From Balanoglossus misakiensis (taxonomy: Eukaryota; Animalia; Hemichordata), in assembly GCA_040954595.2 (NCBI GenBank), contig CM082596.2, positions 3,465,025-3,529,024 on the forward strand: 64,000 nucleotides of DNA. Direction: 5' to 3'. Under the pieces are notes generated by a model. That model saw only the letters and a list, made by a program, of their open reading frames with translations. It was not told the origin of the DNA and did no database searches. The translations under genes were made by a program, and so were the position numbers. Each line of letters starts with the position of its first letter. Position 1 is the stretch's first letter. Shown piece by piece: positions 29,501-35,666 of the stretch.

Positions 29501-30138
29501 TTCAAGGTAGCATTATTGTTCTTTTGTCAATTAACTTAACAAAAAATCCTCATGAATCTATTGCATCAGTGACTTTGTAGCTGACAGTAATATTTAAAAA
29601 TTAGGAAAAGCTGATTAAAAAAATAACACCACCTAAATATGTATGGTTTGGAATATCAACATTACAATATAAGATAGTCGCCAAAATATATTTAAAAATT
29701 ACATTTACCTTATAAACGTTGAAGGTTTTTAAAAACGAAATTAAAATCTACATGGTGATGAACATAACATTGTATAGAAATCATGAGAAAAATGAAAATA
29801 AATACCTTGATATTCTACCACTAGTTCCGCATAGCACACACTTCTGCCAGCTGAGTTAATGGCTTCACACATGTATTCTCCATCGTGGTTTTCAGTCGCA
29901 TTTTCAATAAAAAGCACGCTCCTCCCATCCTCCTCACTGTACATCACAAAGTTTTCAGGACTGATTGGTTTTCCGTTATGGTACCACTTAGTTTCGGGAG
30001 TAGGGACACCACTCACTCTGCACTCAAACTGAACCTTGTCTCCTTCTAAGACAACCAGGTCTGCGATTTTTTCCTCAAATTTCGGCGGGGTGGGTGCAGG
30101 TCCAGTGGTTTCTTGTAGCAGCTCAGTTATTTTGCCAT
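2215..30138 (-). CDS. OBSCN: Multi-exon obscurin/UNC-89-like region: Ig x2, giant repeat exon, IQ, Ig x5, SH3, SH3, RhoGEF DH, PH, SH3, Ig x2, pseudokinase, Ig; about 38 exons, about 3,800-4,250 aa; no start exon seen
   Basis: The SH3 IYMAVTDY...DGQYVDVLDS...WLVRTKPTK...KQGWV closely resembles the obscurin SH3 (recalled, not aligned). It is followed by DH (ELLETE, YLIKPVQRVTKYQLLLKE) and PH exons. Phases are consistent throughout. Confidence 0.85.
3161..3212 (-). CDS. 52-nt linker exon TRDSAKAVGQNPTTVMS
   Basis: cacacag|...|gtgagt; bridges phase 0 to phase 1. Confidence 0.6.
3495..8171 (-). CDS. Kinase 3, likely a pseudokinase; exons 8069-8171, 7628-7828, 7294-7435, 6691-6878, 4118-4267, 3495-3603
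   Basis: QLAR|GKFCKV, VAKF, IVHLNIE|PGNIL, ADFG, YPEFISPE, SDVWSIG, LRHPWL. Confidence 0.85.
8355..9297 (-). CDS. Two Ig exons (9007-9297, 8355-8639)
   Basis: ORFs 8999-9307 and 8341-8631. Confidence 0.9.
9682..10373 (-). CDS. Exons 10141-10373 (Ser/Pro-rich linker) and 9682-9907 (divergent SH3 #3)
   Basis: MYTLKADV...LIKGQTVKVI...QQGYVADHFL. Confidence 0.78.
10537..11192 (-). CDS. PH domain; exons 11010-11192, 10764-10859, 10537-10645
   Basis: LGRLFRKD...RQIFLFQD...YIYKS; GDDRRFELW; KQAWVKEI. Confidence 0.88.
10886..10988. repeat. (GAGT)n-(GAAT)n microsatellite filling most of a 150-nt intron
   Basis: Seen directly. Confidence 0.95.
11316..12403 (-). CDS. RhoGEF DH domain; exons 12233-12403, 12022-12091, 11811-11903, 11535-11684, 11316-11393
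   Basis: ELLETERQFV, FMNLEQIYEFH, YCKNK, LSDYLIKPVQRVTKYQLLLKE, VPKRAND. Confidence 0.9.
12548..12870 (-). CDS. Exon, obscurin-type SH3 (#2) and start of DH
   Basis: ORF 12544-12909. Confidence 0.9.
13007..13910 (-). CDS. Exons 13798-13910 (linker), 13475-13618 plus 13261-13348 (SH3 #1), 13007-13143 (linker)
   Basis: FYKVTSDF...LKVGDQVDVL...RWLVRH...|IGYIPAALL. Confidence 0.8.
14383..16070 (-). CDS. Exons 15958-16070 plus 15453-15650 (Ig), 15000-15324 (acidic/Pro-rich linker), 14383-14726 (Ig)
   Basis: PPEFIDKP...ARISCTVKG|SPSPSLVWF; PPPPFPPR linker; APRFIKT...EGRYTC. Confidence 0.85.
16110..17731. mobile_element. Putative non-autonomous element in an intron: CpG-rich body, about 210-bp internal tandem repeats, two G/C-run hairpins
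   Basis: Repeat motifs near 16940, 17157 and 17370; palindromes at 17463-17549 and 17633-17731. Boundaries uncertain. Confidence 0.5.
17847..17889 (-). CDS. 43-nt linker microexon EFIEEPKESASDETS
   Basis: Bridges phase 1 to phase 2 into exon 15958-16070. Confidence 0.7.
18060..19890 (-). CDS. Exons 19615-19890 (Ig), 19425-19479 (linker), 19045-19208 plus 18650-18847 (Ig), 18060-18371 (Ig)
   Basis: I-set motifs; phases consistent. Confidence 0.85.
20141..26116 (-). CDS. Giant exon (acceptor at 26116 or 24886): basic N/H/S-rich segment, acidic E/V/T/P-rich repeat spacer, C-terminal IQ
   Basis: Uninterrupted 1996-codon ORF; both candidate acceptors are phase 1; donor at 20140. Confidence 0.85.
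20450..23000 (-). repeat. Coding tandem repeat with a 195-nt (65-aa) unit, about 12-13 degenerate copies
   Basis: Unit KEAVxSEELAVxxxxEMVExIDI...PQEVELVxPSETVxxQY; cttgcgacagcttctttca occurs at 22051 and 21271, 780 nt (4 x 195) apart. Confidence 0.9.
26988..27335 (-). CDS. Exon, Ig I-set
   Basis: PPVFDQPIKG...GHPKPSVKWY...AEYKCQAVN. Confidence 0.88.
29806..30138 (-). CDS. Exon, Ig I-set; first visible exon of the obscurin-like part, with a phase-1 acceptor
   Basis: taacag|AT GGC AAA...PPKFEEK...VQFECRVSGVPTP. Confidence 0.88.
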
Positions 30139-32279
30139 CTGTTAGATACACAGAAACAGTCAGGCAATGAACAGAAGAGAGGATGACCTACACTACAGGT
30201 TTGCTATGTATTCCGATTAGCAGGCAGCCAACAATAGATCAGTCTTTTATCATCCTGATCACACGGCACACATTTCAGGTGCAATTGACAGCATGACCAG
30301 CTATCAGATCACGTGTATTTCAAGGCATGGGCAGAGAGAATAATAGTTCCTGAACATTGTTGCAGATATTTTACTGTGCTCTGGTATGATTGTCACTGAT
30401 GAGGTTTACAGCAAGTGGTAATTGATTGGAATATTGATTTGATCAAGCAACAATATATTAATGGGATTGGGTGTGCTCAAGGTGACACTCAGGTTTAAAG
30501 GTTTGCATACAGCAGTGATGCCACCAAAGTGTCTCTGGCACTCCCCTTATTAAACGGGTGGTAGAATTCTATAGAGTTGTAACAGATATTCAAATAATTT
30601 TGAAGCATTTTGAGCACGATTTTCTGTTCAATTCTATAGAAAAACCAAATTCTATAGAAATCTATGGAACACTTTTCATAAGGTTTCTCACATCGGTGCA
30701 TGTTTGGAATCTTGAAAGGTTTGTGAAGTCCATGCATACAGTACAGTTGTATCATGAAAGCAAGCTTCCATGTAGGGTTTAGTGTCACTGCTGTGGCCTT
30801 TTGACCACAGTTGCTCTGTCGAAACCATCAAGCTTACTGCACTGTTACATCATGAAAACAGCAAGAGCACACCAGCTGTGGAAAGTGATGCGGTTGTCAT
30901 GGCAATGAGACTTTAAAACAACAACTGGCTTCTCTATCATTGGGGGAGTCTGATAAATTAATCTGACTTGTTATAACACATGTATTCACTGTTGAAAGAA
31001 CTGTGCCTTAAATATCTGTTGCTATGTAACAAACGCTGCTTTGATAGAGCAAATTTCATTAAGTTTATGGCGAATAGTAATTAACACATAGAACGACCAA
31101 TATGCATGGAGGAAGAGAGTCAGCAAATGAAATTAGAAATAACATGGGTACTCTTGACGCTTTTATTGAAAATTTCAATTTTTCCATTAAATCACAGGAC
31201 AATTCAGTGGTAAAAATAGCTGTAAGCCTTAGGGCCATAATGGAGATGAAATGTGTGTTAACATATACTACATTGTACATGTGGACTGTATCCCCACAAT
31301 TGAAAAAAGATAAAGCAGTACGTATCGAATTCTTGTTGAATATACTGCACCTGCTCCTCAGCTCAGGTGCTGAAATATCACATTGCCATTTTGAATGGCA
31401 AATATGGGATGTTCTCTTTTTTATTAGCCTTTTCCTACATAGACTGATTATCATTTCAAATATTATAGACTAATTTTATAGACTAATTTTATTATACATT
31501 TACATTATGCCAATATACTAGTACATACTTTTTTGCTTTGACATGAAATTTTTCACATTGGCTGAGGATGGTTAAGAGCTGCTTCTTTGTCAAACACTGA
31601 AACAGCTCAAACTTCTTACAAGTTTAATACATAGTCCTTGTCCCACTTTATTCTAACAGTTTAATAGCCTTAAACTCTTTTATTGTTTAAGAGATACTGT
31701 GATACTGCTATTTAGAAGATAAATGCACCACTTACGGGCCACTGAGTCAGGTGAAAAGACTTATCTGTAATTCTGTTCTGTGGTCTGTTGCCTTGGTGAT
31801 ATGCAATTATCCACATAATCAATTGATTCATCAGGCACATTTTAATGGAAATGACATTGTTGATCATTTTGCATGCACTAAATTGGGTATTAAGAAAATA
31901 ATTGGTCATTTGAAATGCAAGATATCTTCTTTAATATAATATTTTTAAGGTTTAGTATTATTAGCTTTGGGTTTCTGTTTGTCAACATCTTGAGAGATAA
32001 CAGCACTTAAGCTGCCAAATGTTTTAATAATCTTTTATGTTGATTTTTCAGTGATCAGGATAGCCTTTAGCTTCTCAAAATGTTCAATTTAGCTTCTCAT
32101 AATGTTCAATATCTAAATTGATTTAAATATGATACTGATAGGATGTATCTGACCTCATATAGTGAAAAATATCATATCATATTGGATCCAGGGGTGTGGT
32201 CGATATCTATACTGCATTGTACAGTTAAGTACATAAGTACTTGAAAATCAATGTGCCAATGGAAGGAATAATTTGTGTA

Positions 32280-34920: not shown

Positions 34921-35666
34921 TCAATCACCTTCTTCATCACTTTCCTCCTCACATTCGACAATGAGTTCTGCAGTGCAGGACACTTCTCCTGCACTGTTCA
35001 CAGCTTTCACGGTATACTCAGCATCATCATCTTCTGTCACGTCACTGATGATGAGTGAACAACTACCACCATCTTCAAAATCCATCTGAAACTTATCGCT
35101 TTCTTTGATTTGTACACCATCTTGATACCACAGGACGTCCGGCTCGGGATCACCAGAAACTTTGCAATCAAATCTCGCAAGGTCCCCTTCCATGACGGGA
35201 CAGTCTCTAATTTTCTTGATAAATGCCGGGACTGTGCCTTTCTTTGGCAGTGTCTTTGCTTCTGGTGTTGACCTTGATCTTCTGAACACACCTTGTATCT
35301 TGCTAGCAGCTTTGACCACTTCTGGGTCATCTAAATCTATGTCAATCTGCTCTTCTTTTGCATCAGAGTTAGCCACTGGTTTCGAAACAGATTCATCTTT
35401 CTTTGGTTCTTCTGTCTTACTTGGCTGCCGTGACCTGCGGAAGACTCCCTGAATTTTTGTCGCTGCCTTGGCAACCTCTGGGTCATTCAGGTCAATGTCA
35501 ACTTCCTCCTCTTTAGAATTTGCCTTCTTGGCTTCTTCCTCCCTCTTGGCTTTCAGCAAGTTTGAAAACGGAGTAGCCGTTTTCTCTTGTGACTGGGATC
35601 TGTTCAAACTACTGAACATTTTCAAGGAAGCCATCCGTCCGATGGCACGAACTGCATTGGCAGTTT
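34921..35666 (-). CDS. MLCK terminal exon: CaM-binding tail, two acidic-IQ motifs, telokin-like Ig, tail CEEESDEEGD*
   Basis: ORF 34921-35634; internal GTGAG donor candidate at 34952. Confidence 0.9.

What the first reader, a model, noticed from the sequence alone, without database searches (positions are those of the whole stretch)
29806..34960. Hidden splice donor may join the dual-kinase MLCK to the obscurin RhoGEF in one mega-gene
Seen: the MLCK stop exon ends ...ATT GTC GAA T|GTGAG GAG..., a phase-1 GTGAG donor at 34952. This is the same position where the paralogous module-1 exon uses GAA G|gtaag (50221). The next coding exon (30138) starts at a phase-1 acceptor, and no initiating exon is visible between 30150 and 34900. 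Splicing gives an in-frame ...IVE-Y-GKITELL, while read-through gives the telokin-like end CEEESDEEGD*. Inference: one locus makes either an MLCK or a protein of more than 6,600 aa combining two active MLCKs, a long spacer, SH3-DH-PH and a pseudokinase. MYLK and OBSCN/UNC-89 are separate genes in vertebrates, fly and worm, so this would physically link Ca/CaM-myosin and Rho signalling.
Basis: partly seen in the sequence, partly recalled or inferred. Interest (0 to 1): 0.88.

Follow-up and report, generated by a model that had tools for sequence, protein, structure and literature searches.

The report
Acorn-worm MLCK–RhoGEF giant gene junction
In what is likely an acorn worm, a two-kinase myosin light chain kinase gene lies 4.8 kb upstream of a Rho-activator unit and is likely spliced onto it in some transcripts, which would give one giant protein carrying both calcium-driven myosin activation and Rho signalling.

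Summary
The sequence facts hold: phase-1 GT at 34952, phase-1 acceptor at 30138, and an open joined frame of 6,828 aa inside the window. The closest proteins are hemichordate. The Glandiceps talaboti RefSeq model XP_077997324.1 (5,428 aa) is this fusion and is collinear with the window. Ptychodera and Saccoglossus models keep the parts separate, but neither has a credible first coding exon. Echinoderm models keep them as separate genes. No RNA could be examined, so the splice is inferred (about 0.62). The downstream unit is probably not obscurin: it has one kinase, which nests among MYLKs, and Saccoglossus has a separate two-kinase obscurin. It matches amphioxus 'MYLK2', whose RefSeq model already joins SH3-DH-PH to an intact MLCK. 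RhoGEF plus MLCK-family kinase in one chain is known from obscurin, Trio/kalirin and connectitin. Verdict: new variant of a known kind, moderate interest.

The parts
58865..64000 (-). Ig x5 and FN3 exons upstream of kinase 1; the gene continues past the window edge
56489..56507 (-). 19-nt ATG exon (MASDTE), donor 11.8 bits: likely internal start just before kinase 1; identical to the N-terminus of the Glandiceps model
52532..55907 (-). MLCK kinase 1 with calmodulin-binding helix (4 exons); catalytic motifs intact
50222..50834 (-). Module-1 IQ motif and telokin-like Ig; phase-1 donor at 50221
49680..49704 (-). 25-nt acidic micro-exon that carries module 1 on into module 2; matches the Glandiceps model
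38582..49425 (-). Module-2 Ig array and FN3, collinear with crinoid and starfish MLCK
35927..38462 (-). MLCK kinase 2 with calmodulin-binding helix; catalytic motifs intact
34921..35667 (-). Composite exon: two IQ motifs, telokin-like Ig, acidic tail, read-through stop at 34923-34921
34947..34955 (-).
34923..34931 (-). Better candidate donor (GT at 34928), phase 1, 7.2 bits; position matches the join in the Glandiceps model
30139..34920 (-). Gap (intron, or 3' UTR plus promoter); longest interval of the chain; ATTAAA 34532, AATAAA 34203; candidate ATG exons at 32937-32868 and 31544-31529
29806..30138 (-). First downstream Ig exon, phase 1 in and out, acceptor 8.5 bits
26988..27380 (-). Second downstream Ig exon
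20141..26116 (-). Giant acidic spacer exon ending in an IQ motif; two phase-1 acceptors (26116, 24886) 410 codons apart, the same difference as Ptychodera isoforms X1 and X3
14383..19890 (-). Ig array after the IQ motif
9682..13618 (-). SH3, SH3, DH (RhoGEF), PH, SH3
8355..9297 (-). Two Ig domains before kinase 3
3495..8171 (-). Kinase 3: catalytic loop HLNIEPGN (no Asp, no Lys), DFG kept, no calmodulin helix; likely a pseudokinase derived from an MLCK
2218..2543 (-). Last Ig exon with stop; matches the C-terminus of the Ptychodera model

Best explanation
This is likely one hemichordate transcription unit with alternative starts and ends, in which the last MLCK exon likely acts as a composite exon: ending in the gap gives a two-kinase MLCK with a telokin-like acidic tail, and splicing, most likely from the donor at 34928, to 30138 would add Ig-Ig, a giant spacer, IQ, Igs, SH3-SH3-DH-PH-SH3, Ig-Ig and a degenerate third MLCK kinase. 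Shown: exon chain, phases, open frame, domain order, intact motifs in kinases 1 and 2, broken catalytic loop in kinase 3. Inferred: that the splice happens, that kinases 1 and 2 are Ca/calmodulin-activated and phosphorylate myosin regulatory light chain, that the DH-PH unit activates a Rho-family GTPase (target not predictable: 37-39% identity to either Trio DH), and that the long form is a filament-anchored scaffold putting both activities at one site. The MLCK-only form is probably the commoner one.
For: Glandiceps RefSeq model is fused and collinear with the window from kinase 1 to kinase 3. Its join follows ESDEE, conserved in the window, and its split codon lies the same distance before the first Ig strand as the window's 30138 acceptor, which puts its donor at the equivalent of 34928. 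That model's first six residues equal a 19-nt ATG exon in the window, so at least its 5' end is not arbitrary. All 3 Ptychodera isoforms start at a Met in the middle of the first Ig, a Met absent from window, Glandiceps and Saccoglossus, while the Ig half upstream of it is conserved in those three: that half needs an upstream coding exon. The Saccoglossus N-terminus has no match in the gap and ends in a stretch that reads like a translated acceptor (my reading). Module 1 joins module 2 the same way, telokin Ig, acidic linker, next Ig. A stop within 2 codons of read-through follows 21 of 64 donors in the chain, so the stop at 34923 does not argue against a donor.
Against: No transcript evidence was seen. 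The Glandiceps record is a single computational isoform with unknown read support, and it ends before the last Ig that Ptychodera has, so it may be partly ab initio. Ptychodera X1-X3 (4,212, 4,211, 3,802 aa) and Saccoglossus are annotated without MLCK. All 6 Asterias MLCK isoforms end at or before the telokin Ig, and the echinoderm RhoGEF proteins have their own N-termini. Of 521 stored proteins, 89 had a kinase at least 60% identical to kinase 2, 204 had a DH domain, 1 had both. Both donors are below the median (17 and 10 of 64 lower). The gap is the longest interval in the chain (4,814 nt; next 2,957; median 263) and has about 1.8 times the intronic density of polyA hexamers. Two candidate ATG exons lie in the gap.
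Confidence: 0.62

Rival explanations
1. Two separate tandem genes: the MLCK always ends at the stop at 34923, and the RhoGEF gene starts from its own promoter and a short ATG exon in the gap (for example 31544-31529 or 32937-32868). The Glandiceps fusion would be a gene-prediction merge.
For: Separate models in Ptychodera, Saccoglossus, Asterias, Antedon, Anneissia, Patiria, Acanthaster. Acidic tail after the telokin Ig like vertebrate MYLK. Long gap with polyA signals. This locus does use tiny ATG exons (56507).
Against: Ptychodera's 3 isoforms show no in-frame first coding exon; the donor position agrees between window and Glandiceps; 2 candidate ATG exons against about 0.6 expected is not a clear excess, and none of 9 N-termini of relatives matched the gap.
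Confidence: 0.33
2. The splice exists but uses the first reader's donor at 34952, dropping the acidic linker (IVE-Y-GKITELL), alone or beside 34928.
For: Same position as the module-1 donor at 50221; phase 1; 6.1 bits.
Against: Weaker than 34928; T at -1 without GTAAG; the Glandiceps model keeps the acidic linker; module 1 also keeps an acidic linker through a micro-exon.
Confidence: 0.15
3. The downstream unit is the true chordate-type obscurin orthologue that lost one kinase, so the join is a real MYLK-obscurin fusion.
For: Second SH3 is 53-58% identical to many top hits, among them named vertebrate obscurins further down the list; IQ-Igs-SH3-DH-PH-Ig-Ig order resembles chordate obscurin (PMC12812942, passages); kinase 3 with obscurin kinase B is not rejected (p-AU 0.068); kinase 3 sits on a long branch (1.14).
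Against: Kinase 3 nests in the MYLK clade (99/98); grouping with obscurin/SPEG kinase A is rejected (p-AU 0.020); DH-PH with vertebrate obscurin is rejected narrowly (p-AU 0.029); DH-PH is 58% identical to amphioxus MYLK2 and 27-33% to vertebrate obscurins; Saccoglossus and amphioxus have separate two-kinase OBSCN records (PMC12198301 supplement 3).
Confidence: 0.2

Closest known systems
Glandiceps talaboti XP_077997324.1 ('muscle M-line assembly protein unc-89-like', RefSeq model, 5,428 aa)
   Same: Two MLCK kinases, telokin Ig, Ig-Ig, spacer, IQ, SH3-SH3-DH-PH-SH3, Ig-Ig, kinase 3 in one chain; kinases 81%, 88% and 65% identical to the window's.
   Different: Starts at the ATG exon before kinase 1, uses the short giant exon, lacks the last Ig; its kinase 3 keeps the catalytic Asp (HLDIEPGN). 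A computational model whose read support I could not see.
Amphioxus 'MYLK2' (XP_078621722, XP_078701899; its kinase start matches Bf_MYLK2 XP_035661607.1 of PMC12198301)
   Same: Igs, SH3-DH-PH-SH3, Ig-Ig, then one MLCK kinase; DH-PH 58% identical.
   Different: Its kinase is intact, keeps the calmodulin helix and lies after the RhoGEF; no upstream MLCK modules and no IQ-ended giant exon in these models.
Echinoderm dual-kinase MLCK (Asterias XP_071792534-38, XP_033628654-55; sea urchin Sp_MYLK_A1/A2 in PMC12198301 supplement 3) and vertebrate MYLK
   Same: Ig-Ig-FN3-kinase-calmodulin helix-telokin Ig unit, twice in Asterias; kinases 63-71% identical.
   Different: End at or before the telokin Ig; the RhoGEF is a separate gene whose listed Pfam families include no kinase.
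Obscurin / UNC-89 / SPEG
   Same: Giant Ig protein with IQ, SH3, RhoGEF-PH and MLCK-family kinases; alternative ends by splicing (PMC12812942, PMC3114093, passages).
   Different: Two C-terminal kinases after the RhoGEF; here one degenerate MYLK-type kinase follows it and two intact MLCKs precede it.
Trio/kalirin and cnidarian connectitin
   Same: RhoGEF and MLCK-family kinase in one chain; connectitin has a central RhoGEF-PH-SH3 and 2-3 kinases (PMC12198301, main text).
   Different: Sec14 and spectrin repeats, none seen in this window; kinases are C-terminal.

Membership tests
MYLK (smooth/non-muscle MLCK), modules 1 and 2 | Kinase groups with MYLK and keeps catalytic motifs | tested here: met
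   In the 99/98 clade with vertebrate MYLK; HLDLKPEN and DFG present
MYLK (smooth/non-muscle MLCK), modules 1 and 2 | Ig-Ig-FN3-kinase-calmodulin helix-telokin Ig order | tested here: met
   Collinear with pig, crinoid and starfish MLCK
MYLK (smooth/non-muscle MLCK), modules 1 and 2 | Ca/calmodulin-dependent phosphorylation of myosin regulatory light chain | not testable with these tools
   Inferred from sequence only
Obscurin / UNC-89 | RhoGEF-PH with SH3 and Ig domains | tested here: met
   Pfam RhoGEF, PH and I-set on the Saccoglossus orthologue; collinear with the window
Obscurin / UNC-89 | Two C-terminal kinases after the RhoGEF | tested here: not met
   One kinase after the RhoGEF in the window and in Ptychodera, Glandiceps, Saccoglossus; last exon has a stop
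Obscurin / UNC-89 | Kinase groups with obscurin kinase A or B | tested here: inconclusive
   Best trees place kinase 3 among MYLKs; kinase A rejected (p-AU 0.020), kinase B not rejected (0.068); long branch
Obscurin / UNC-89 | DH-PH groups with vertebrate obscurin | tested here: not met
   p-AU 0.029 on a 25-row quick tree (15 of 40 rows left out); obscurin branches are long, so the rejection is weak
Obscurin / UNC-89 | M-line localisation in muscle | not testable with these tools
   No expression or localisation data
Trio / kalirin / connectitin | Sec14 and spectrin repeats, and for Trio two DH-PH units | tested here: inconclusive
   One DH-PH found; no Sec14 or spectrin Pfam on the Glandiceps model; the 5' end of the gene is outside the window
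Amphioxus MYLK2-type RhoGEF-MLCK | SH3-DH-PH-SH3-Ig-Ig followed by a single MYLK-clade kinase | tested here: met
   Same order; kinase 3 and the amphioxus kinase are sisters in one quick tree with support 76 only; joint DH clade not rejected, p-AU 0.33
Single spliced transcription unit | Reads or cDNA across the junction | not tested
   No run could be laid on the stretch

The most novel reading that the evidence does not exclude
Early deuterostomes had a RhoGEF-bearing MLCK gene distinct from obscurin. Amphioxus keeps it with an active kinase, echinoderms split it into neighbouring MLCK and RhoGEF genes, vertebrate MYLK lost the RhoGEF, and acorn worms express it as a protein of about 7,000 aa with two Ca/calmodulin-activated MLCKs, four IQ motifs, a RhoGEF and a pseudokinase, switched on and off by one composite exon.
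Probability: 0.4. Interest if true: 0.68.

Novelty: new variant of a known kind. Interest (0 to 1): 0.5.

Why it matters
The two main inputs to smooth and non-muscle myosin II, Ca/calmodulin-MLCK and Rho-ROCK (textbook knowledge, recalled), would sit on one polypeptide under splicing control. It would also show an overlooked deuterostome gene family that databases label obscurin-like, titin homolog or uncharacterized, and would change how the origin of vertebrate MYLK is read. The surprise is limited: the fused model is already in RefSeq for one species, and RhoGEF-kinase giants are known. I found no paper describing it in 8 searches.

Tried and rejected
No whole genome is held for this window. 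RNA run search on 26900-36100: no RNA holder listed, so no reads were laid. Search with the telokin exon among proteins of 434-2,000 aa and with the Antedon kinase among 3,501-5,000 aa gave no hemichordate dual-kinase MLCK; MLCKs of 2,001-3,500 aa were not searched, so the Ptychodera and Saccoglossus MLCK ends, and their donors, were not seen. The RhoGEF search covered 1,949-6,202 aa and scored only 2,500 candidates; longer fused isoforms could not appear. The SH3 profile search (118 hits) gave no near-identical protein. N-termini of 9 related proteins against the gap and the next two introns: no match in the gap; only the Ptychodera and Saccoglossus spacers matched 26116-24887. GC, CpG and TATA scans of the gap showed no promoter signature. 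Earlier-findings look-ups returned nothing. Rejected: 34952 as the most likely donor; 'obscurin' as the name of the downstream unit; the stop after the donor as evidence for a terminal exon. No structure or complex prediction was run, as neither bears on the splice.
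Full report
Observation. The gene runs on the minus strand. The exon that starts at 35667 encodes two IQ motifs and a telokin-like Ig and reads through to a stop at 34923-34921. A phase-1 GT lies at 34952, at the place where the paralogous module-1 exon has its donor (50221), and the next coding exon has a phase-1 acceptor at 30138. 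I built an exon chain by hand from reading frames and splice sites and added two exons that were missing at first, 55907-55820 and a 25-nt micro-exon at 49704-49680. The chain has 64 exons and no stop: 6,410 aa through 34952 with the short giant exon and 6,828 aa through 34928 with the long one. One or two small exons near 16-18 kb are not in it, and the 5' end is outside the window.

Chance. Against a matrix made from the other 64 donors, 34952 scores 6.1 bits (median 9.1; 10 of 64 lower). 27 of 1,033 GTs inside coding exons score as high, and the same 9-mer lies unused at 47960. A second phase-1 donor at 34928 scores 7.2 bits (17 of 64 lower; 13 of 1,033 decoys). A stop within two codons of read-through follows 21 of 64 donors in the chain. 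The gap is the longest interval in the chain (4,814 nt from 34952; next 2,957; median 263). It holds ATTAAA at 34532 and AATAAA at 34203, with such hexamers at about 1.8 times the density of the introns, and two ATG exons with good phase-1 donors where about 0.6 are expected. The sequence alone therefore cannot decide.

Relatives. The closest proteins are hemichordate: DH-PH is 86% identical to Ptychodera flava, 78% to Saccoglossus and 76% to Glandiceps, so the window is likely from an acorn worm close to Ptychodera. Glandiceps talaboti XP_077997324.1 (5,428 aa, one isoform) has both MLCK kinases, the telokin Ig, and the whole downstream unit in one chain, collinear with the window. At the join it reads IVEGDESDEEG then KRSAL, where the window reads IVECEEESDEEGD; the acidic linker is kept and the distance from the split codon to the first Ig strand agrees, which places its donor at the equivalent of 34928. 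Its first six residues, MASDTE, are a 19-nt ATG exon in the window at 56507-56489 with an 11.8-bit donor. That shows that the model's start is real and that first exons in this locus can be too small to see. Against this, the model ends before the last Ig that Ptychodera has, and its read support is unknown to me.

Ptychodera has 3 isoforms (4,212, 4,211, 3,802 aa) without MLCK, all starting at a Met in the middle of the first Ig; that Met is absent from the window, Glandiceps and Saccoglossus, and the Ig half before it is conserved in those three. Saccoglossus XP_006823010.1 is also separate; its first 32 residues match nothing in the gap. So 1 of 3 hemichordate annotations is fused and the other 2 lack a credible start. 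In echinoderms the parts are separate: all 6 Asterias MLCK isoforms end at or before the telokin Ig, and the RhoGEF proteins of Asterias, Antedon, Anneissia, Patiria and Acanthaster have their own N-termini. Consecutive accession numbers and equal contig lengths suggest that the two genes are neighbours in Asterias amurensis (XP_071792534-38 and 39-40) and Antedon (XP_071942496 and 484-491); this is inferred from the records, not mapped. Of 521 stored proteins, 89 had a kinase at least 60% identical to kinase 2, 204 had a DH domain and 1 had both; the amphioxus kinase, at 59%, fell just under the cut.

What the downstream unit is. It has one kinase after the RhoGEF, whereas obscurin is defined by two (PMC12812942, passages). 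Kinase 3 has HLNIEPGN in the catalytic loop; Glandiceps and Saccoglossus keep the Asp but not the Lys. In a 57-row tree it nests in the MYLK clade (99/98) on a long branch. On a 37-row subset (20 rows left out for speed) a clade with obscurin/SPEG kinase A is rejected (p-AU 0.020) and one with kinase B is not (0.068). The DH-PH groups with echinoderm orthologues; a clade with vertebrate obscurins is narrowly rejected on 25 of 40 rows (0.029). Supplement 3 of PMC12198301 lists separate two-kinase OBSCN records for Saccoglossus (XP_006823009.1), sea urchin and amphioxus, and two kinases for sea urchin MYLK. The best match in architecture is the amphioxus protein XP_078621722: SH3-DH-PH-SH3-Ig-Ig and an intact MLCK with its calmodulin helix, whose kinase start is that of the paper's Bf_MYLK2, placed there as the counterpart of vertebrate MYLK. 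Against this reading, the second SH3 is close to vertebrate obscurin SH3 (49-56%), and I held no invertebrate deuterostome OBSCN for the trees.

Mechanism. Most likely the exon at 35667 is a composite exon. Polyadenylation in the gap gives a dual MLCK that ends in an acidic tail like vertebrate telokin; use of the donor at 34928 would extend the protein into the RhoGEF unit. Alternative starts (56507) and alternative acceptors of the giant exon (26116 and 24886, 410 codons apart like Ptychodera X1 and X3) add further forms. I put the existence of the joined transcript at 0.62 and two strictly separate genes at 0.33. Activity of kinases 1 and 2 and of the GEF is inferred from motifs; the GTPase target cannot be told (37-39% identity to either Trio DH).

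Novelty. RhoGEF and MLCK-family kinases share a chain in obscurin, Trio and kalirin (PMC3114093, passages) and in cnidarian connectitin (PMC12198301, main text parts 1-4 of 7; supplement 1 whole, supplement 3 parts 1-2 of 7, search hits in supplement 5; its figures are not held, and the unread supplements may bear on synteny). New here is the order, with two intact MYLK-type kinases upstream of a RhoGEF, and the sign that this RhoGEF family is not obscurin. Eight paper searches found no description; other papers were seen as listings only. The fused form exists as a database model, not as a shown transcript. New variant of a known kind; interest 0.5.

Noticed in passing
window 56489-56507 (-): 19-nt ATG exon (MASDTE) identical to the Glandiceps model start; Asterias models also start just before kinase 1, so an internal promoter there may be old.
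   Followed up: partly
window 20141-26116 (-): Giant exon with two in-frame acceptors 410 codons apart, the same difference as between Ptychodera isoforms X1 and X3; the extra part is basic and polar, the rest acidic with diverged repeats.
   Followed up: partly
protein P0125 (Styela clava XP_039266508.1), after residue 2690: A tunicate model in which MYLK continues past the telokin Ig into tandem Igs whose best matches are long obscurin-type proteins: a second, different MYLK-obscurin neighbourhood or merge.
   Followed up: partly
window 36862-37356 and 53783-54277 (-): The two 495-nt kinase exons share a long identical protein stretch within the window, and Glandiceps kinases 1 and 2 share their own; hemichordate kinases 1 and 2 group together apart from echinoderm ones, which hints at gene conversion.
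   Followed up: no
window 50222-50834, 34921-35667, 20141-20230 (-): Four IQ motifs, three with a DIDLxDPEV lead-in, lie between kinase and telokin Ig or after the spacer; the pig MYLK held here has none at that place.
   Followed up: no
Saccoglossus records XP_006823003-011: MYLK, an Ig/IQ protein, OBSCN, this RhoGEF protein and connectin have near-consecutive accessions, which suggests a cluster of titin-family genes.
   Followed up: no
protein P0124 (Argopecten irradians): Scallop MLCK models also carry two kinases and end at a telokin-like Ig.
   Followed up: no
window 38943-39043 and 10886-10988: Microsatellites (3-nt x34 and 4-nt x26); the first replaces the pyrimidine tract of the acceptor at 38929, which scores -2.7 bits.
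   Followed up: no
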